In this document: positions 2,171 to 32,404 of the stretch, in pieces | Numbering within the stretch: position 1 is the first letter of the stretch | How the letters are laid out: the number at the start of each line of letters is the position of its first letter | DNA from: Escherichia phage W70 | Direction: 5' to 3' (one strand) | Length of the DNA: 64,000 nt | Sequence record: OP778610 | Notes under the pieces: model-generated | Seen by the model: the letters and a program-made list of their open reading frames with translations, nothing else | The model's database searches: none | What the model was told of the DNA's origin: nothing | Translations under genes and position numbers: made by a program

Positions 2171-2201
2171 AAAGGCGCTCAAATGAGCGCCTTTATTTTT
2201 A
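2171..2201. terminator. bidirectional intrinsic terminator
   Basis: Hairpin aggcgctc-aaat-gagcgcct flanked by T-runs on both strands, between convergent genes. Confidence 0.7.
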
Positions 2202-2215
2202 TCTAAATTTTACGA

Positions 2216-3391
2216 TCAAAACGGAATATCGTCGTCAAAATCCATATCATCTACAGACATATTTACATGTCCTTCAATATCAGGGGTAGGTGAATCTTCT
2301 GCTGACGGAGTTAACTGCGGTTCCGGCTCAGGTTTCTTTTCCTCTTGCTTAGGAGTTGAAGCACCGTTACGGATCTTATCTTCCAATTGACAGATGAATC
2401 GGAAATTCTCTTCAGTCTTAGCAATAAAGGTTTCGATATTGTCACGACCCCAACGGGCAGAAAGAATGCCACACTGGCCTAAACGAGCACCGAAAGAGTA
2501 ATCATCCATAGATTTAAACTCTTCACGCAGTTTTGCTTTGATCGAATCCATCGCTGCAAGAACTTGTTCTACGATCACACCCTGATTTGCAATAGTTTCA
2601 TCAGGGAACATTGCATCGGTAATAGATAGTGCATTACCTAAACGAATAGGTAGATCATCTTTACCTTTACCTGAACGTGATCCTGTTCCAGTACTTGCAC
2701 CTTTTGGACCGTAAGCTTTAAAGCCTGTAACCGTACCATCATCTGAACGAACACCTGCAATACGACCACCTTCTGTAATCTGACCCGTCTGTTCATCAGT
2801 GAGGTTTACAGTAACTTCTGTGCCGTCTTCCAGCTTAACAACTACCTTATTGCCTTCGATAGATGTGATATCACCATAAATCTTCTTAGCTGCACCACCA
2901 GACGGCTTTTGCTGCTGTTGGGAACCACTTGATTGCTGCTGTTGCTGACGAGGCTCACGAGCACCGGATGCGTCAGTAATCTTGATACGTGCTTTCTTAC
3001 CTTCTGTAGAAGAACCTTGACTACCATCTTGTTTGGTATAGGTCTTGATAACAACAGGTAAACGAATTTTCATACCCTCTTTAAGATCGGTGTAACCACC
3101 TTCAGGATTTTTAATCTGGAACTGATTCTCATACTTCAGATTTTTAACTTCACCCTCACCAAAAGAAATCCATGCTTGATCTTCACCTTCTTTAAGAAGA
3201 ACCGCATAGCGGTGGGTATTGTTAATGCTTTTCTGCTGACCAGTATTCTTGTCTTTGAAGGTAGTCACTCGTGGGCTACCATCTTCATTAATACGTTTGA
3301 TCATGATACGTTCAATCGTACCTGCTGCAATGTTTACTGTGGTATCGGAAACAGCATCGTATACAGCATTGATAACTTTAACTTCAGACAT
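2216..3391 (-). CDS. single-stranded DNA-binding protein candidate with host-SSB-type C-terminal tip
   Basis: C-terminus DDMDFDDDIPF matches the bacterial SSB tail; Gln/Gly-rich linker (QQQQQSSGSQQQQ); sits in replication array. Confidence 0.55.
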   Translation of the reverse strand: MSEVKVINAVYDAVSDTTVNIAAGTIERIMIKRINEDGSPRVTTFKDKNTGQQKSINNTHRYAVLLKEGEDQAWISFGEGEVKNLKYENQFQIKNPEGGYTDLKEGMKIRLPVVIKTYTKQDGSQGSSTEGKKARIKITDASGAREPRQQQQQSSGSQQQQKPSGGAAKKIYGDITSIEGNKVVVKLEDGTEVTVNLTDEQTGQITEGGRIAGVRSDDGTVTGFKAYGPKGASTGTGSRSGKGKDDLPIRLGNALSITDAMFPDETIANQGVIVEQVLAAMDSIKAKLREEFKSMDDYSFGARLGQCGILSARWGRDNIETFIAKTEENFRFICQLEDKIRNGASTPKQEEKKPEPEPQLTPSAEDSPTPDIEGHVNMSVDDMDFDDDIPF

Positions 3392-3474
3392 TTAAATCTC
3401 CTTTAACTATTGAACACACCACTTAAGGCCGAGAAACTATATTACAACTAACTTATTTGAATTGCAAACAACTT

Positions 3475-3855
3475 TTAGAGATAAACTCGCTTAACTTTTT
3501 CATGAACATTATCAAACAAAGTGTTGATCATCTGCAAGTCTTTAATAAGTTCTTCCGTAAATTGTTCTTCTTTGTGAGCAAACACACGAGAACGGTCAAT
3601 GTTTACAGGATCTGAACTTTGGTCGCCTGACAGATCGAAAATGTCGATACCGATACGAGCACGGCCTTTTTCAATCTTGTTGTTTTCATCAATACCGAAG
3701 ACACTCATGATTTGCATTTCACGATCTTCTTCACTGTTTGTGTAAATGATCGTCGTATTCAAATTCTTAACACCATCGTAAATGTGAATGTTACGTGTCG
3801 CAGAGATAGGAATCCAATCAGCAACCAAATAATCTTTACCGTCGAAAATACTCAT
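3475..3855 (-). CDS. hypothetical protein
   Basis: 126-aa ORF in co-directional array; no motif recognised. Confidence 0.5.
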   Translation of the reverse strand: MSIFDGKDYLVADWIPISATRNIHIYDGVKNLNTTIIYTNSEEDREMQIMSVFGIDENNKIEKGRARIGIDIFDLSGDQSSDPVNIDRSRVFAHKEEQFTEELIKDLQMINTLFDNVHEKVKRVYL

Positions 3856-3909
3856 CTTCTTTCCTCTTTTGTTTAAGTGGGGCCATTATGCCCCACACTT
3901 AACTTTCTG

Positions 3910-4482
3910 TCAAGGACGTTTCGGTGGACTAACGACACCTTTTTTAGATAAAGGTAATTCGTCTGCATCTTTTCCACGGAGAGATTCTAACCACTCATCT
4001 AAAGATAGAGGTACTTTGCCAACACCCTTGGACCATACAGATAAGCAATACAGGTCGTATGCAGATGGGCCAGCATCACCCTTGTCACCATACGGCCCTT
4101 TTAAACTCGCCAACCAATCCTTTTCATTCAGTGGGATAGTGCCTGGATCTTCTTGTCGAAGAACTCTTAGGTATGTTTCATAAGCAGACTCTCCACGGGG
4201 ACCCATTGGACCAGGTAAACCTTGCGGTCCCTTTGCATAGTCTAAATATGCAGACTTTGAACCATCATTGACCACTGAAACTTTATACAATGACCAAGCC
4301 AACAGAACTATCCAACAAGCAAACAATGCAAGCGGGTAAGGGATCATTGAAGTAAAGAATGACAGGGCTAAAATTACAACCTTGTTCTTGTGATCACGAC
4401 GGAAAGCGATGATCACAGGGGCTAACCAGATAGCAAAGATAACCCACGCAGATAAGATAAACAACCAACTAATGTATTCCAT
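3910..4482 (-). CDS. membrane protein with collagen-like G-X-Y triplets
   Basis: Hydrophobic N-terminal half (at least two TM-like stretches); GPQGLPGPMGPRGES and GPYGDKGDAGPS triplets. Confidence 0.55.
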   Translation of the reverse strand: MEYISWLFILSAWVIFAIWLAPVIIAFRRDHKNKVVILALSFFTSMIPYPLALFACWIVLLAWSLYKVSVVNDGSKSAYLDYAKGPQGLPGPMGPRGESAYETYLRVLRQEDPGTIPLNEKDWLASLKGPYGDKGDAGPSAYDLYCLSVWSKGVGKVPLSLDEWLESLRGKDADELPLSKKGVVSPPKRP

Positions 4483-4670
4483 TAAGCCTCCTCAGTATCG
4501 TCTTTAAAGTAATCTAACATCCAACTCTCTACAGGTTTCGCATAGTAACCCGTTCGCCCTTTCTTTTGGAACTCCATAACAATTTCATTTGCAATACCTT
4601 TTGTGATTGCGATCCCGATCAGTGCACCACCAGGCCCCATTACTGCATGTGAACTAAGATCATTACTCAT
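4482..4670 (-). CDS. hypothetical protein
   Basis: 62-aa ORF, start overlaps upstream stop. Confidence 0.4.
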   Translation of the reverse strand: MSNDLSSHAVMGPGGALIGIAITKGIANEIVMEFQKKGRTGYYAKPVESWMLDYFKDDTEEA

Positions 4671-4962
4671 TTTTAACCCCCTTCATTTTATCTCTTAAAC
4701 TTTGAGCATCCCACGTATAACCTGAGGAGATACCTTTTTCACGTTCACTATCTTTGAACTTGCAAATTACAGATTTTGCTTCACCATCAACAACAACCGC
4801 ATAACTGTTGTAGTAATTGTGTTGCTTCTTGCAAAATTCGTGTAACTCCTTGACCTCTATTGGCATCAGAGAAGGTAGATTTTTGTATCGCTTTGTCTGA
4901 TCATCTTCACCCTCTCCGCAACCAACAAGAAGAAGTATACATAAAATGATTAACCTTTTCAA
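4663..4962 (-). CDS. putative lipoprotein
   Basis: N-terminus KRLIILCILLLVGC resembles a lipobox signal; TTG start in track. Confidence 0.5.
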   Translation of the reverse strand: MKRLIILCILLLVGCGEGEDDQTKRYKNLPSLMPIEVKELHEFCKKQHNYYNSYAVVVDGEAKSVICKFKDSEREKGISSGYTWDAQSLRDKMKGVKNE

Positions 4963-5112
4963 TAGCTACCCCCAAAATATTTTGTAGTCTCTACTGCAAA
5001 TATTGTCCCAAGTATGAACCATGTCGCACTTAGCACGTTGAAAGGTAAAAACCTCGATCCTGCAAGAGAAACCATAATAAAAAACGTTACAAAAATCTCT
5101 GGAGGAATCATC
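4963..5112 (-). CDS. small hydrophobic peptide (48 aa)
   Basis: ATG overlaps upstream stop (ATGA); two hydrophobic stretches; below ORF-track cutoff. Confidence 0.3.
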
Positions 5113-5512
5113 ATTGTTTGATAGTCCCTTTGGCGATCATCTCGTCAAGTTCATCTTCCGCACGACACATGATTTGGTAGATAGTTTCTGGATTGTTTAA
5201 GAATTCTGTGTACTTCTTGATACGACAAACTAAACGTGCACGAACTTTACGCTCACGGGCCACATGATTAAAGTAATGTCCCTTTTGTCTGTAGACCCAA
5301 GCATAATATACAGTTTTTGCTCTCTGGCGATCAGAACCTAAACGTTCAGCTAATTCTGTGTACGGGTCATTGTTGGTTGGACCAAACAAAAATATTTCTG
5401 CAAAACTTTCCTTCATGATACGAGCTTCTTCATCCGTAACTCGCGGACATTCTTCAGAACCGTAACGTGGGGTTTTAGTGGCATTTGGCTTCTTAGGGTA
5501 TACTTTACGCAT
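5111..5512 (-). CDS. hypothetical basic protein
   Basis: 133-aa ORF, Arg/Lys-rich. Confidence 0.5.
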   Translation of the reverse strand: MRKVYPKKPNATKTPRYGSEECPRVTDEEARIMKESFAEIFLFGPTNNDPYTELAERLGSDRQRAKTVYYAWVYRQKGHYFNHVARERKVRARLVCRIKKYTEFLNNPETIYQIMCRAEDELDEMIAKGTIKQ

Positions 5513-5579
5513 TTCATCACTCCTCTAATTAAAACTCTTACTCCCGATGTGAGGAGCCTTTCGGCCCCTCCCTTAAATA

Positions 5580-6188
5580 TCAATCACAACTGCTTGAAGA
5601 ACTGCTACTGCTACTATCCGAAGAATAACTATCGTAAGATGATGAGCTATCATACGAACTTGATCGACTTGGAGAACAGTAAGAACTTGAACTACTTGTA
5701 CGATCTTCACTGGATGACATTACGGCAGCATACGTTGCCACACCACCTAAAGCTGCCACCTGAGGATCAACCTGGCTAGTCCCGTACCCGTTTGGGGAGT
5801 CGCTCATCTTACGTGGTGCTGCCCGACGTGCCTGATCAATATACTGTCGCTTTGCCTTCGGCGGTAATTTCTTACCTTGAGCATAGGACGGTAATTCAAC
5901 GCCCTTCAGTTGTTCATCCAAGGACTTAGGCGGTGTAGCCTGAGCTTTTGGGCGTTCAATTGAGATATCTACAACCTTCATTGTTTTATCTTTAAGGTTT
6001 ACCCCTACCAACGCTTCATTTTCCTTTAGTGGTTCTTCTAAAGATCGTGTTTCAACTGGACTGAATTTAACGCTTGCAGTTTCTTGACGTTGTTCAGCTT
6101 GCTTTGCGATATACTTATCGATCGCCGCAGTTTCTACTTCCAGAGGAATAAATAATGATTTTACCCAAGCAACAAACTTCTTGATCAT
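5580..6188 (-). CDS. hypothetical protein with Ser-rich C-terminal tail
   Basis: C-terminal 50 aa almost entirely Ser/Tyr/Asp. Confidence 0.5.
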   Translation of the reverse strand: MIKKFVAWVKSLFIPLEVETAAIDKYIAKQAEQRQETASVKFSPVETRSLEEPLKENEALVGVNLKDKTMKVVDISIERPKAQATPPKSLDEQLKGVELPSYAQGKKLPPKAKRQYIDQARRAAPRKMSDSPNGYGTSQVDPQVAALGGVATYAAVMSSSEDRTSSSSSYCSPSRSSSYDSSSSYDSYSSDSSSSSSSSSCD

Positions 6189-10920: not shown

Positions 10921-13251
10921 ATGGTAATAGATAATACGTCTAACGCCTTCATCATACCAACCTTTCTTAACCAACTGCCAGTGCAGGAGGATACCCACCA
11001 AGTCAAACAGTGCAGCACCACCATTCTGCTGATAAGCATTAAGCAATGAGTGTTTGGAACGAGTGTAGATCTTACGTCCATCAAGACCGTAGATGAATCG
11101 CTTACCGTTAGCTTCCCAAAACTTCTCTAGTGCTTCTTTACGACCTTTCAAGCCGATGTTGCTATCCCAGAATGCGTCGATTACTGCCTGGGCCTTCTCA
11201 AGAGTGATCCCCAGCATTGATGCAATCTTCGCTGCCTGTGCCCCGTACATAATTCCGTATGTCACACCTTTACCTTCACCACGAGAAACCTTCTTCCCTG
11301 CCGCTTTGGTATACGCTTCTGCGTTTCGGGAGTGAGCATCTCCAGATTCCATGATACGAAGATAAGCACCGCCATCGAAATCATAAGCGCCCCATGCTGC
11401 GATCATACCTTCTAGGTTTGAACCGTCGATACCTACCTGATATTTACCCTCAGAGGCTCTGAATAGTTCACGCATCTCTTTACCGAGAAGAACTTTCTCA
11501 TCCGGCTTAGGTACGTTTGCTACGATCGTATGCTTACGACGACCTGTGTTAGTTATTCCACTATAACGGGCCGGAAGTTTACCGTCAACTCGTAGACGTG
11601 GATGGTTAAGCCATCCGGTATCAACCTTCTCTTCTTTCAGCGGGTCAAGAACAGATCGTCGGTTACGTAAAGACAGCCATTTAACAATCTGTTTAGCCAT
11701 TTCACCATCTACTCGCTCAAGGTTAGGGCAAAGACCCTGTTGATCCTTAAGTTGTGGAGATGTAGGTAATGCACGAGCTTTCTTACGGAAAAACTTGAAC
11801 ATCTTTTCTTTATCTGACCACTGCTTAGGTGTGATCGCCAAGCTTTTCAGAATCAGATCACGATACTCCGTCTGATCCAAATCTTCAATGTATTGACGAA
11901 CAATCAGATCAACTTCACTATCGGGACGTTGTTTCTTGAACTGATCTTTAGTTGCATCCTTTGTACGCCAAATTGTTGGGACCCATCCTGCATCACGGAT
12001 CAGGAACTTCTTAACGTCGTCCTGGTTACCAATACGCATCGGAATCATAATGTCCGGCATCTTTTGTTCTTTGATATCCATCAAAGCACGAGCCATATCT
12101 TCCGGCGGCAAAGGAACAAGCCCTTGCTGCTTAACGTTTTGTGCACGGATAAAATCACCCATTTTGGATTCGTCCTCTACACCGTGTTCAACACAATACT
12201 TGATCGCGGCAGCAGTAAGAGATCCGTCAGCCTTAAACGGCTTACTTGGTGCACCTTTAAATTCCAAGGCTTCCCAATTGATATTATAACCTAACTTCTC
12301 TAACCATTTCCAACCTGTACCGGAAAGAGATCCATCACCCTTGAAAGGTTTGGATGGGAATGTCGGTTGTGCTGATTTCGACATCTCTTTCTTCGGCAAC
12401 TTAGGTTCAACCTCTAACTCAATGTCAGTCATCATCTTATCGATACGATCACGAAGCTTGAGTGCTTTTTCTTCATCAAATGAAACACCCTGAATTTCTT
12501 GCTCAATCATCAGGTAGTCAGTCAACATACCTCGACGCAGGGCATTCTTCCAGTTGATCATTTTATACTTCTTCTGATCTTTGTCTGTTTCATCCTTAAA
12601 CATGAAGCGTTTATCATCCGGCATGGATTCACAGGAGATCTCTTTCATCAGAGCATCCCACACCATTTCGTTGATAATTACGTCTTCAATAATACGATCG
12701 CAATACTTCCAAAGTGGAAGGCCACGCCAATCTTCAATCGCCACTTTCTGGTTAGCTACTCGCATACCCCAAGCTTCAAGCCCGTGTGGCCCTACAGGCT
12801 TCATTTTACCTGTGACGGGGTTCTTTACCATCTCAGGACAACCGCGAGGCAGAGGGCGATCTGGATACAATGTACGGGACATTGAAAGTGTATCGAAGAT
12901 GGTTACTTGTTTACCATTGATCGTCCCCATGCAACCAGGGTCTGCAAACATATCGTAAGTTGTTCCTAGCATCTTCTTAAACAACTGGAGGTCATAGCCG
13001 AAGATGTTGTGGATAGCAACTGCTTTAGGCTCGGTAACGAACCATTCGTTTAATTCTTCAAGGGTGCGGATCTTGAAGTTTTTACCTTTAGATTGGATAA
13101 ATTTAACAGCTTGATCGTAACCTTCTCGCTGTGGATCAAGAAAGATGTTCCAGTTATCTTTTTTGTACTCTTTAAACAAGATGCAGTGGATTAGATCAAC
13201 TTCTGTCAACAGACCATTAGCTTCCGCATCTCCAATAAATAAGCCTTTCAT
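10921..13251 (-). CDS. DNA polymerase (family A), exon 1
   Basis: N-terminal FIGDAEANG 3'-5' exo motif; KKVSRGEGKGVTYGIMYGAQAAKIA resembles motif B; ORF stops one codon after ...YYH. Confidence 0.75.
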
Positions 13252-31944: not shown

Positions 31945-32404
31945 TATTTATTTGGATACCGAAACGATTTTCGTTAGTGGAAAAGAAACCATTTTCCATG
32001 CGGCGAATCTCTTCTTTCATCACTTCCTGCATCGTTAATTTAAGGATTTCTTTGTTTAATTTTGGCTTAACTTCATGAAGCTTGTCAAGAAGTTTTTCCA
32101 TTTCTTCTTTTACTTTTTCTTCCTCATTTTCTATTTCTAATTGGTCCATCGCATCTTTGCAAACACAGCAATGACCTATTACTCTTAAAATGTGGTTTTG
32201 TATAGGTAATGCTTTTCTACCACAATAACCACAAAGAATAGAACCACCAGAGTTTCGGGCATCCACTGTCAATGTAGGTTTGGCCCCTTTTGCCTGAGAA
32301 TGCCAAGTCTTTTTGCCTTGGTAATCATACATAAAGAATTCATAGGATCTCTCATCAACGTGATCTTCGAGCATATGTAAAGTTCGTGTATTGAAATGTT
32401 TCAT
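31916..32404 (-). CDS. hypothetical zinc-ribbon protein
   Basis: CGYCG...HCCVC cysteine pairs. Confidence 0.5.
   Translation of the reverse strand: MKHFNTRTLHMLEDHVDERSYEFFMYDYQGKKTWHSQAKGAKPTLTVDARNSGGSILCGYCGRKALPIQNHILRVIGHCCVCKDAMDQLEIENEEEKVKEEMEKLLDKLHEVKPKLNKEILKLTMQEVMKEEIRRMENGFFSTNENRFGIQINNGEDYVEED

What the first reader, a model, noticed from the sequence alone, without database searches (positions are those of the whole stretch)
3910..4962. Membrane protein with collagen-like triplets followed by a lipoprotein
A protein with a strongly hydrophobic N-terminal half and two G-X-Y collagen-like runs is followed by a short ORF and a lipobox-type lipoprotein. Early-region membrane and lipoprotein pairs in lytic phages often mediate superinfection exclusion or envelope remodelling; collagen-like triplets in such a protein are unusual.
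Basis: inference. Interest (0 to 1): 0.5.

Follow-up and report, generated by a model that had tools for sequence, protein, structure and literature searches.

The report
Imm-like membrane protein with collagen stalk
A lytic E. coli phage carries a distant relative of phage T4's "immunity" membrane protein (which stops a second phage from injecting its DNA). This relative has a collagen-like, tail-fibre-type stalk ending in a conserved peptide and is made together with a lipoprotein, an arrangement not described for this kind of protein.

Summary
The window is Escherichia phage A73 (Vequintavirinae), and all three ORFs lie on the minus strand, so they are transcribed as lipoprotein (4962..4663), 62-aa ORF (4670..4482), then 190-aa membrane protein (4482..3910).

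- **Membrane domain.** Residues 1-67 are a remote homologue of the T4 Imm superinfection-immunity domain (PF14373). The arginine needed for T4 exclusion is conserved.
- **C-terminal part.** It is tail-fibre-shaft-like: two G-X-Y runs, each followed by a "SAYE...WLxSLKG" module. It ends in a peptide, GKDADE(I/L)PLSKxGV, found only in this family.
- **Family.** About 42 protein clusters, all in Certrevirus/Septuagintavirus-type phages. They keep the membrane domain, an in-frame G-X-Y run of 4-13 triplets and the tail, and carry 0, 1 or 2 modules.
- **Neighbours.** A lipoprotein gene with three conserved cysteines and a ~50-aa membrane-protein gene sit just upstream, with overlapping stop and start codons. 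The two lineages that lack the lipoprotein have also lost the acidic part of the tail.

Most likely this is an early-expressed, probably trimeric Imm-type block to DNA entry that works with the lipoprotein. Function and topology are inferred, not shown. I class it as a new variant of a known kind, of moderate interest.

The parts
4959..5114 (-). 51-aa small membrane protein (two hydrophobic segments), first gene of the conserved cassette. Its TGA stop overlaps the lipoprotein TTG start (TTGA).
   Evidence: ORF. phrog_22594, E 1.8e-12. Homologues sit directly upstream of the lipoprotein or Imm-like gene in CR3 (unannotated, L003:2529-2681), L012, L013 and L014, with a 42-aa membrane ORF at that position in L011.
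4663..4962 (-). 99-aa lipoprotein precursor. Signal peptide aa 1-14, lipobox LLVGC, lipidated Cys15 (nt 4918-4920). Mature domain of 85 aa with conserved Cys44 and Cys67 (probable disulfide).
4482..4670 (-). 62-aa ORF with no family match, found only in the A73 clade and one relative. Overlaps the lipoprotein stop by 8 nt and the next gene's start (TAATG).
   Evidence: No Pfam, PHROG, PADLOC or credible NCBIfam match. A 67-aa homologue with shared GPGG...G(K/R)TGYY..P.E.WM.D motifs is at L012:3782-3985.
3910..4482 (-). 190-aa Imm-like membrane protein with a collagen-like, tail-fibre-type C-terminal extension (whole gene, stop codon included). Strong Shine-Dalgarno GAGGAGG lies 5 nt before the ATG.
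4282..4482 (-). Imm-type membrane domain, aa 1-67. Predicted helices 2-19, 21-28, 34-45 and 50-65. Basic loop RRDHKNK (aa 28-34). P22, A26 and R29 align with T4 Imm P26, A30 and R33.
   Evidence: hhalign against T4 Imm: 83.5% probability, E 8.3e-6. PF14373 at 18.8 bits for this protein, below the 27.9 cutoff, but 17 of 28 members hit it, best E 3.8e-6. phrog_1039 'immunity to superinfection', E 8.9e-6. AF2 pLDDT above 90 over aa 1-66. Foldseek hit to the Aeromonas phage Imm protein, probability 0.95.
4186..4230 (-). First G-X-Y run, aa 85-99 (5 triplets).
4099..4188 (-). First tail-fibre-type module, aa 99-128: SAYETYLRVLRQEDPGTIPLNEKDWLASLK (helix-loop-helix in the model).
   Evidence: PHROG tail-fibre families phrog_19976, phrog_15437 and phrog_4440.
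4063..4098 (-). Second G-X-Y run, aa 129-140 (4 triplets).
3976..4065 (-). Second tail-fibre-type module, aa 140-169: SAYDLYCLSVWSKGVGKVPLSLDEWLESLR.
3913..3975 (-). Family-specific C-terminal tail, aa 170-190: GKDADELPLSKKGVVSPPKRP. This is the most conserved stretch of the protein.
   Evidence: Invariant G170, D172, A173, P177, G182 and V183, with E175, L178 and S179 in at least 90% of 28 sequences. The motif occurs only in this family among 250 retrieved proteins. It is lost where the lipoprotein gene is absent.
3877..3913 (-). Promoter-like site TTGACA-17-CATAAT (11 of 12 matches) overlapping a GC-rich hairpin (3877-3896), just after the gene's stop. It may be the boundary with, or a start site for, the next gene (DUF7325, 3855..3475).
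   Evidence: This is a consensus match only, and promoter-like sites were not enriched over shuffles.

Best explanation
The 190-aa gene encodes an inner-membrane protein of the T4 Imm (superinfection immunity, PF14373) type. It is expressed from the replication-gene block of a lytic Vequintavirinae phage, together with a small membrane protein and a lipoprotein.

- **Membrane domain and its target.** By analogy with T4 Imm, the four-helix membrane domain would bind the membrane-inserting part of the tape-measure protein of a second, related phage. That would stop formation of the DNA channel in the inner membrane. T4 Imm binds the tape-measure protein gp29 and needs R33 (bioRxiv 10.64898/2026.03.06.709160).
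- **C-terminal extension.** The new element is the extension after the membrane domain: a collagen-like G-X-Y stalk, here interrupted by two tail-fibre-shaft modules. It most likely makes the protein a trimer and projects from the periplasmic face of the membrane. The stalk ends in a conserved 20-residue peptide whose acidic part most likely contacts the co-translated lipoprotein.

Shown: gene structure and overlaps, the homology, G-X-Y frame conservation, family-specific tail, and loss of the tail's acidic motif together with loss of the lipoprotein gene.

Inferred: trimerisation, periplasmic location of the stalk, contact with the lipoprotein, and exclusion of superinfecting phage.
For: **Homology to T4 Imm.**
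- hhalign of the family profile against T4 Imm gives 83.5% probability, E 8.3e-6, over 61 columns.
- T4 Imm itself scores 58 bits on PF14373, and 17 of 28 family members hit PF14373, best E 3.8e-6.
- phrog_1039 'immunity to superinfection' matches at E 8.9e-6.
- Foldseek finds the Aeromonas phage Imm protein at probability 0.95.
- UniRef names the CR8 and PBES02 homologues 'Superinfection immunity protein'.
- T4 R33, needed for exclusion, aligns with the nearly invariant R29.

**Membrane domain.** AF2 models aa 1-66 at pLDDT above 90 as four helices.

**Collagen-like stalk.**
- In 34 of 34 module-free clusters the G-X-Y run is uninterrupted over 4-13 triplets. Length changes only in whole triplets.
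- 10 of 28 members hit Pfam Collagen.

**Tail-fibre character of the modules.**
- An exhaustive search found 375 hits. Most are proteins of 400-2800 aa with up to 17 matching stretches to aa 64-175.
- One of these carries a phage tail tip domain.
- The RSF1 tail fibre shows the same alternation of G-X-Y runs and modules.

**Link to the lipoprotein.**
- The genes overlap.
- The two loci without a lipoprotein gene (L011, L013) have both lost DADE(I/L), while all eight inspected loci with an intact motif have the lipoprotein.

**Topology hints.** The loop RRDHKNK is strongly basic and the flank after the last helix is not. The T4 Imm N-terminus is periplasmic.

**Context.** The genes lie in the block with the DNA polymerase genes, as T4 imm lies beside gene 43. 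The protein is not among the 28 virion proteins of the sister phage W70.
Against: - No experiment on any member of this family was found.
- The A73 protein is below the Pfam cutoff for PF14373 (18.8 against 27.9 bits) and matches only the first 26 of 42 profile positions. A 6-residue insertion lies in the loop where T4 has W50, so the T4 contact residue W50 is not conserved.
- PF14373 is a small hydrophobic domain and only T4 Imm has been studied, so function may not transfer.
- Topology is open. The last hydrophobic stretch (aa 35-66) is broken by a Pro-rich turn. It could be a re-entrant hairpin, which would put the stalk in the cytoplasm.
- The modules and tail are modelled at pLDDT of about 50.
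- The lipoprotein/tail co-variation rests on two loss events (Fisher p about 0.016, ignoring phylogeny).
Confidence: 0.5

Rival explanations
1. A membrane tether with a cytoplasmic stalk. The N-terminal helix spans the membrane, helices 3 and 4 form a re-entrant hairpin, and the collagen-like stalk and conserved tail face the cytoplasm. There the acidic I-P-L motif would recruit a cytoplasmic phage or host protein to the membrane, for instance replication or recombination factors.
For: - The second hydrophobic stretch is 32 residues long, with a non-helical Pro-rich turn at aa 46-49 in a high-confidence model. This suits a hairpin as well as a kinked single span.
- In T4 Imm the equivalent loop faces the tape-measure protein. 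This would fit a hairpin tip.
- Tail-fibre-type modules normally fold in the cytoplasm.
- The motif DADE-I-P-L loosely resembles the SSB tip DDD-I-P-F. The neighbouring 391-aa protein ends in MDFDDDIPF.
- The genes lie among replication genes.
Against: - The motif is internal, whereas SSB-tip recognition needs the free C-terminal carboxylate (established knowledge).
- A basic loop followed by a hydrophobic stretch is the standard signal-anchor arrangement that exports what follows.
- The tail co-varies with a periplasmic lipoprotein.
- The same long-loop module type occurs in proteins with an N-terminal signal-anchor (P0179 and P0231).
Confidence: 0.15
2. Envelope protection or lysis timing rather than a block to DNA entry. 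The cassette would stabilise the infected cell's envelope against damage by secondary adsorption (lysis from without), or feed into lysis control. T4 imm and sp mutants are reported to affect these processes.
For: [quoted passage not shown]
- The cassette combines three envelope proteins.
- The +2 residue after the lipidated Cys is Asp in 19 of 35 lipoprotein clusters. By the established +2 sorting rule this keeps a lipoprotein in the inner membrane.
Against: No lysis genes are nearby. Endolysin, holin candidate and spanins of Certrevirus lie elsewhere (PMC7344957). No sequence or fold similarity to T4 Sp, or to any other solved protein, was found.
Confidence: 0.15
3. A spanin-like pair: an inner-membrane protein with a periplasmic rod plus a lipoprotein that together bridge the envelope and disrupt the outer membrane at lysis.
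For: The general layout fits: a membrane-anchored protein with a rod-like extension and an adjacent, translationally coupled lipoprotein.
Against: - Certrevirus, rV5 and PVP-SE1 already have an Rz/Rz1 pair next to the terminase gene.
- Gene order here is lipoprotein first.
- The membrane part is a multi-helix Imm domain, not a single type II anchor.
- The lipoprotein is a globular 80-85 aa domain, often with Asp at +2, not a short Pro-rich outer-membrane lipoprotein.
- Stalks of 4 triplets are too short to cross the periplasm.
- Two lineages lack the lipoprotein.
Confidence: 0.04
4. A virion or fibre-assembly component: a membrane-bound scaffold or chaperone that nucleates trimerisation of the phage's own collagen-like fibres.
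For: - The phage's own fibre proteins carry very long G-X-Y runs, and A73_145 has two SAYE-type modules. A73_145 is 41% identical to the membrane protein over 49 aa.
- PHROG matches include 'tail assembly protein' and 'tail fiber protein' families.
Against: - The protein is not among the 28 virion proteins of phage W70.
- The gene sits in the replication block on the opposite strand to the structural genes.
- Most family members have no module at all.
- There is no nucleotide similarity to the fibre genes.
- The conserved tail is absent from all fibre-like proteins.
Confidence: 0.06

Closest known systems
Phage T4 Imm (immunity to superinfection; Pfam PF14373 Imm_superinfect)
   Same: Small inner-membrane domain with the same helix pattern and the P-x3-A-x2-R signature. 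T4 P26, A30 and R33 correspond to A73 P22, A26 and R29. The gene belongs to a lytic myovirus and lies in the early or replication region.
   Different: T4 Imm is 83 aa with a short hydrophilic tail. The A73 protein has 123 extra residues: G-X-Y runs, two tail-fibre-type modules and a conserved peptide. It also has a 6-residue insertion with a conserved Pro in the loop where T4 has the functional W50. It is genetically coupled to a lipoprotein and a ~50-aa membrane protein. The A73 protein alone does not reach the Pfam cutoff.
Collagen-like shaft repeats of phage tail fibres (G-X-Y runs alternating with 'SAYExAV..G..G....WLxSLKG' modules, as in the Ralstonia phage RSF1 tail fibre and A73's own A73_145)
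   Same: The same alternation of G-X-Y runs and ~25-32 aa helix-loop-helix modules. There are hundreds of matches to long fibre proteins.
   Different: The unit here is fused to a membrane domain and has only two modules, of a long-loop subtype (...P(L/M)xxx(D/E)WL...). There is no receptor-binding or tail-attachment domain, and the protein was not detected in virions.
T5 Llp, phi80/T1 Cor and T4 Sp (periplasmic or lipoprotein superinfection-exclusion factors)
   Same: A small exported phage protein with a conserved cysteine pair, made by a lytic phage alongside other envelope proteins. This is a possible functional parallel to the T4 Imm plus Sp pair.
Two-component spanins (Rz/Rz1)
   Same: A membrane protein with a rod-like extension plus a lipoprotein, encoded by overlapping genes.
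   Different: The order, anchor type, lipoprotein type, genomic position and dispensability of the lipoprotein all differ. The lineage has a separate Rz/Rz1 pair.

Membership tests
Pfam PF14373 Imm_superinfect (T4 Imm family) | Score at or above the Pfam gathering cutoff (27.9 bits) | tested here: not met
   The A73 protein scores 18.8 bits, E 0.0015, with aa 18-43 matching profile positions 1-26 of 42. Within the family, 17 of 28 members match at E of 0.01 or better, best 3.8e-6. Five clusters carry a precomputed PF14373 hit.
Pfam PF14373 Imm_superinfect (T4 Imm family) | Profile-level homology to T4 Imm itself across the membrane domain | tested here: met
   hhalign of A3 against T4 Imm gives 83.5% probability, E 8.3e-6, over 61 columns. 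Foldseek hits the Aeromonas phage Imm protein at probability 0.95 with 31% identity.
Pfam PF14373 Imm_superinfect (T4 Imm family) | Residues shown to matter for T4 exclusion (R33, W50) | tested here: inconclusive
   R33 aligns with R29, which is conserved in at least 90% of members. W50 falls beside a 6-residue insertion and aligns with a variable position.
Pfam PF14373 Imm_superinfect (T4 Imm family) | Blocks DNA entry of superinfecting phage and binds the tape-measure protein | not testable with these tools
   This needs plating and DNA-entry assays and a pull-down with A73_134.
Collagen-like triple-helix protein (Pfam PF01391) | Uninterrupted (G-X-Y)n with the frame kept across homologues | tested here: met
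   The A73 protein has runs of 5 and 4 triplets. All 34 module-free clusters have 4-13 uninterrupted triplets, and length varies only in whole triplets.
Collagen-like triple-helix protein (Pfam PF01391) | Pfam gathering cutoff (27.2 bits) | tested here: not met
   The A73 protein scores 14.7 bits. 10 of 28 members match, best E 6.5e-8.
Collagen-like triple-helix protein (Pfam PF01391) | Forms a trimer with a triple helix | not testable with these tools
   Only a monomer model could be made, and the stalk has pLDDT of about 50.
Bacterial lipoprotein (signal peptidase II substrate) | Basic n-region, hydrophobic core, lipobox [LVI][ASTVI][GAS]C | tested here: met
   The precursor begins MKRLIILCILLLVGC. 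G14 and C15 are invariant in 35 clusters.
Bacterial lipoprotein (signal peptidase II substrate) | Sorting signal at +2 (Asp means inner-membrane retention) | tested here: inconclusive
   The +2 residue is D in 19 clusters, N in 10, G in 3 (including A73) and other in 3 of 35. Gly at +2 in A73 is ambiguous.
Known exclusion lipoproteins and periplasmic factors (T5 Llp, Cor, T4 Sp) | Sequence or fold similarity | tested here: not met
Two-component spanin (Rz/Rz1) | Single N-terminal type II anchor, i-spanin gene before o-spanin gene, short Pro-rich outer-membrane lipoprotein, lysis context | tested here: not met
   The membrane part is a four-helix domain. The lipoprotein gene comes first, and its product is a globular 85-aa mature domain. 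The lineage's Rz/Rz1 pair sits next to terminase.
Phage tail fibre protein | Virion component with attachment and receptor-binding domains | tested here: not met
   Only the shaft repeat is shared. The protein is absent from the W70 virion proteome, and its gene lies in the replication block.

The most novel reading that the evidence does not exclude
A three-part exclusion device at the inner membrane. Three Imm-type domains would be held together by a collagen triple helix taken from tail-fibre shafts, matching the three- or six-fold symmetry of an incoming tail tip and tape-measure protein. A lipoprotein that grips the conserved C-terminal peptide would cap the stalk, and a ~50-aa membrane protein would assist. 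This would be a new architecture for blocking phage genome entry, and a non-virion use of a collagen-like fibre module in a phage.
Probability: 0.25. Interest if true: 0.65.

Novelty: new variant of a known kind. Interest (0 to 1): 0.45.

Why it matters
The mechanism of T4 Imm is only now being worked out. A 2026 preprint reports that it binds the tape-measure protein.

This family offers a natural variant of Imm with:
- an added oligomerisation stalk of variable length (4-13 triplets, 0-2 modules);
- a short, nearly invariant peptide;
- a co-varying lipoprotein partner.

These features give clear handles for experiments on how Imm-type proteins meet the incoming tail. The family would also give a function to a conserved four-gene cassette that GenBank annotates only as 'hypothetical' in Certrevirus and Septuagintavirus phages. 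Some of these phages are being studied for biocontrol and therapy, where exclusion between cocktail members matters.

It also shows a tail-fibre shaft module reused outside the virion.

Tried and rejected
**Hypotheses rejected**
- Spanin pair. The lineage's Rz/Rz1 genes are elsewhere, and order, anchor and lipoprotein type do not fit.
- Virion or fibre component. The protein is not in the W70 virion proteome and its gene is on the other strand, in the replication block.
- Recent copy of the phage's own fibre gene. A73_145 shares 41% aa identity over 49 aa but no nucleotide similarity.
- Llp-, Cor- or Sp-like lipoprotein. No sequence or fold match was found.
- Known defence-system protein. PADLOC found nothing.
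- Weak Pfam hits dsrm and Ibs_toxin for the lipoprotein, and NCBIfam Lcl adhesin and StkG. All are far below cutoff and were dismissed.

**Searches that gave nothing useful**
- PDB sequence searches with the C-terminal half, with the family profile and with T4 Imm returned nothing useful.
- The AlphaFold database library was not available for fold search.
- The 1993 paper on T4 Imm topology (PMC237878) is not held, and no other held paper states where the T4 Imm C-terminus lies. Topology therefore could not be settled from the literature.
- The single-sequence homologue search found only near-identical proteins. The family appeared only with a profile.
Full report
**Where the window comes from.** Region 3400-5600 is 100% identical to Escherichia phage A73 (OP778609.1, 142 kb, Vequintavirinae, genus Septuagintavirus). 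Window position 1 is about record position 32000. Four sister phages share the region at 93-96% identity.

**Checking the observation.**
- The coordinates match three minus-strand ORFs exactly: 4962..4663 (99 aa), 4670..4482 (62 aa) and 4482..3910 (190 aa). All are annotated 'hypothetical protein'.
- Transcription therefore runs lipoprotein, then short ORF, then membrane protein.
- A fourth ORF, 5114..4959 (51 aa, two hydrophobic segments), belongs to the same string.
- Each stop overlaps the next start (TTGA at 4959-4962, 8 nt at 4663-4670, TAATG at 4482), which suggests translational coupling.
- The 190-aa protein is hydrophobic over aa 1-66. It has G-X-Y runs at aa 85-99 (5 triplets) and 129-140 (4 triplets).
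- Two such runs arose in 5e-5 of shuffles of the C-terminal 120 residues.
- The lipoprotein begins MKRLIILCILLLVGC.

**The membrane domain is Imm-like.**
- Pfam gives a sub-threshold hit to Imm_superinfect: 18.8 bits against a cutoff of 27.9, with aa 18-43 on profile positions 1-26 of 42.
- PHROGs gives phrog_15593 (E 1.6e-21, unknown function) and phrog_1039 'immunity to superinfection' (E 8.9e-6).
- I built the family from related phage loci and a profile search, then aligned 28 members (A3).
- 17 of the 28 hit PF14373, best E 3.8e-6.
- T4 Imm, taken from NC_000866, scores 58 bits on that model.
- hhalign of the family profile against T4 Imm gives 83.5% probability, E 8.3e-6, over 61 columns.
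- In that alignment T4 P26, A30 and R33 match A73 P22, A26 and R29. P22 is invariant in the family, and A26 and R29 are present in at least 90% of members.
- A 2026 preprint reports that T4 Imm binds the tape-measure protein gp29. It also reports that R33A and W50A weaken exclusion and that the N-terminus faces the periplasm (10.64898/2026.03.06.709160).
- T4 W50 has no conserved counterpart here. The family has a 6-residue insertion with a conserved Pro at that loop.
- AlphaFold2 models aa 1-66 at pLDDT above 90, with helices 2-19, 21-28, 34-45 and 50-65.
- Foldseek against viral models finds an annotated Aeromonas phage superinfection immunity protein (probability 0.95, 31% identity).

**The C-terminal part is a tail-fibre shaft unit plus a private tail.**
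- Each G-X-Y run is followed by a module: SAYETYLRVLRQEDPGTIPLNEKDWLASLK and SAYDLYCLSVWSKGVGKVPLSLDEWLESLR.
- tblastn and PHROGs match this part to tail fibre proteins of many unrelated phages.
- An exhaustive HMMER search of 1.8 billion representatives gave 375 hits. Most are proteins of 400-2800 aa with up to 17 matching stretches to aa 64-175. One of them ends in a phage tail tip domain.
- The Ralstonia phage RSF1 tail fibre shows the same alternation of G-X-Y runs and 'SAYExAVxxGFxGxxxxWLxSLKG' units.
- The model gives each module two short helices at low confidence, as expected for a monomer model of a trimeric fibre piece.
- The last 21 residues, GKDADELPLSKKGVVSPPKRP, are the best conserved part of the whole family. 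The motif D-A-D-E-(I/L)-P-(L/I)-S occurs in none of the fibre-like proteins retrieved.

**The family.**
- About 42 clusters plus two more from the exhaustive search.
- Among sequenced phages the family occurs only in 28 records of Septuagintavirus, Certrevirus and SSBI34-type phages. These infect Escherichia, Cronobacter, Pectobacterium, Enterobacter, Klebsiella, Pantoea and Salmonella.
- All members have the Imm-like domain, a short hydrophobic strand-like stretch, a G-X-Y run and the tail.
- In the 34 clusters without modules, the run is uninterrupted and 4-13 triplets long. Length has therefore changed only in whole triplets. This is what selection for a triple helix predicts, and I infer a trimer.
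- Seven clusters carry one module. Only the A73 clade carries two.

**The neighbours.**
- In every locus inspected, a ~50-aa two-segment membrane protein gene lies upstream. This includes an unannotated one in CR3.
- The lipoprotein gene lies between that gene and the Imm-like gene, usually overlapping the Imm-like gene by 4-8 nt.
- The lipoprotein family has 35 clusters. G14, C15 and C44 are invariant and C67 is present in at least 90%. An exported domain with a probable disulfide fits this pattern.
- The residue after the lipidated Cys is Asp in 19 clusters, Asn in 10 and Gly in 3 (A73 among them) of 35. By the established +2 rule, Asp keeps a lipoprotein in the inner membrane. Gly is ambiguous.
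- The 62-aa ORF has a 67-aa homologue at the same place in a relative that carries one module (L012), so it is a real gene. No family matched it.

**A co-variation.**
- Two lineages lack the lipoprotein gene at the locus: L011 (protein P0042) and L013 (protein P0191). In both, the small membrane gene abuts the Imm-like gene.
- Both have lost the acidic DADE(I/L) part of the tail while keeping P-L-S-K-x-G.
- The membrane domain in L013 is close to that in L014, which has both the lipoprotein and the full motif.
- All eight inspected loci with an intact motif have the lipoprotein.
- Counting loci naively gives Fisher p of about 0.016. Phylogeny is ignored and there are only two loss events.
- I read this as modest evidence that the tail contacts the lipoprotein, and therefore that the stalk is periplasmic.

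**Topology.**
- The loop RRDHKNK is strongly basic, and the flank after the last helix is neutral or acidic. The N-terminus of T4 Imm is periplasmic.
- The simplest model is N-terminus out, loop in, C-terminus out. The second hydrophobic stretch would then act as a signal-anchor.
- That stretch is 32 residues long with a Pro-rich break, so a re-entrant hairpin with a cytoplasmic stalk cannot be excluded.
- I could not obtain the 1993 topology paper. I put the periplasmic model at roughly two in three.

**Context and rivals.**
- The cassette lies near the end of the minus-strand block that holds the DNA polymerase genes. The block is closed by a bidirectional terminator at 2171-2194. T4 imm also lies next to its polymerase gene.
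- The protein is not among the 28 virion proteins of sister phage W70 (PMC11370258).
- Certrevirus, rV5 and PVP-SE1 have an Rz/Rz1 spanin pair next to terminase (PMC7344957). A spanin role here is therefore unlikely, and the anatomy does not fit one either.
- A73's own fibre proteins contain very long G-X-Y runs, and A73_145 has two SAYE-type modules. A73_145 shows 41% identity over 49 aa to the membrane protein but no nucleotide similarity, so this is not a recent internal copy.
- No PADLOC family matches.

**Literature.** Searches found no description of this architecture or cassette. The Septuagintavirus and Certrevirus papers do not discuss these genes. UniRef automatically names two Certrevirus homologues 'Superinfection immunity protein'.

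**Verdict.**
- The thing is best described as an Imm-family membrane protein with a collagen-like, tail-fibre-type stalk and a conserved lipoprotein-linked peptide. This makes it a new variant of a known kind.

Noticed in passing
window 2216..3391 (-): The 391-aa protein that ends the operon finishes with ...DMDFDDDIPF, the same nine residues as the C-terminal tip of E. coli SSB. It also has a Gln/Ser-rich linker. No Pfam SSB domain was found (only a weak Myosin_N hit) and it is annotated hypothetical. It may be a divergent phage SSB or a mimic of the SSB tail.
   Followed up: partly
window 2171..2194 (both strands): A perfect 10-bp GC-rich hairpin with T-runs on both sides lies between the convergent genes A73_120 (+) and the 391-aa gene (-). 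It looks like a bidirectional terminator separating the structural and replication blocks.
   Followed up: no
window 4099..4188 and 3976..4065 (-); also proteins P0109 and P0110: The SAYE...WLxSLKG module gives weak hits to Pfam PF04328 (Sel_put) and NCBIfam KCU-star selenoprotein. Repeat-rich fibre proteins even pass the Pfam cutoff by summed score. This may be a distant relationship or a convergent helix-loop-helix. No Pfam model describes the fibre module itself.
   Followed up: partly
OP778609.1 7003-10803 (A73_145) and 11517-13100 (A73_143), outside the window (locus L015): The phage's own fibre proteins are extremely collagen-rich. A73_145 has nine G-X-Y runs of up to 23 triplets. A73_143 has runs of 51 and 48 triplets. 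A73_145 also has two SAYE-type modules. Its W70 homologue had the highest spectrum count in the virion proteome.
   Followed up: partly
L003:2529-2681 (Cronobacter phage CR3): An unannotated 50-aa membrane ORF, homologous to window 4959..5114, fills the 'gap' between CR3_040 and CR3_039. The same gene is annotated in DU_PP_I (p042).
   Followed up: yes
window 5580..6188 (-): A 202-aa protein has a C-terminal third that is almost pure Ser, with Tyr, Asp and Cys (…SSSSSYCSPSRSSSYDSSSSYDSYSSDSSSSSSSSSCD). No family matched.
   Followed up: no
window 3913..3975 (-): The conserved tail motif D-A-D-E-(I/L)-P-L loosely resembles the SSB tip D-D-D-I-P-F carried by the gene two positions downstream. 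The motif is internal, so classical SSB-tip recognition is unlikely. The resemblance matters only if the stalk turns out to be cytoplasmic.
   Followed up: no
proteins P0179 and P0231 (metagenomic): These small proteins have an N-terminal signal-anchor followed by the same long-loop subtype of the SAYE module (SAYELYVENVPEGETPMTEVEWLESLKG). So this module subtype is also used in membrane-anchored, probably surface-exposed proteins outside the Imm-like family.
   Followed up: no
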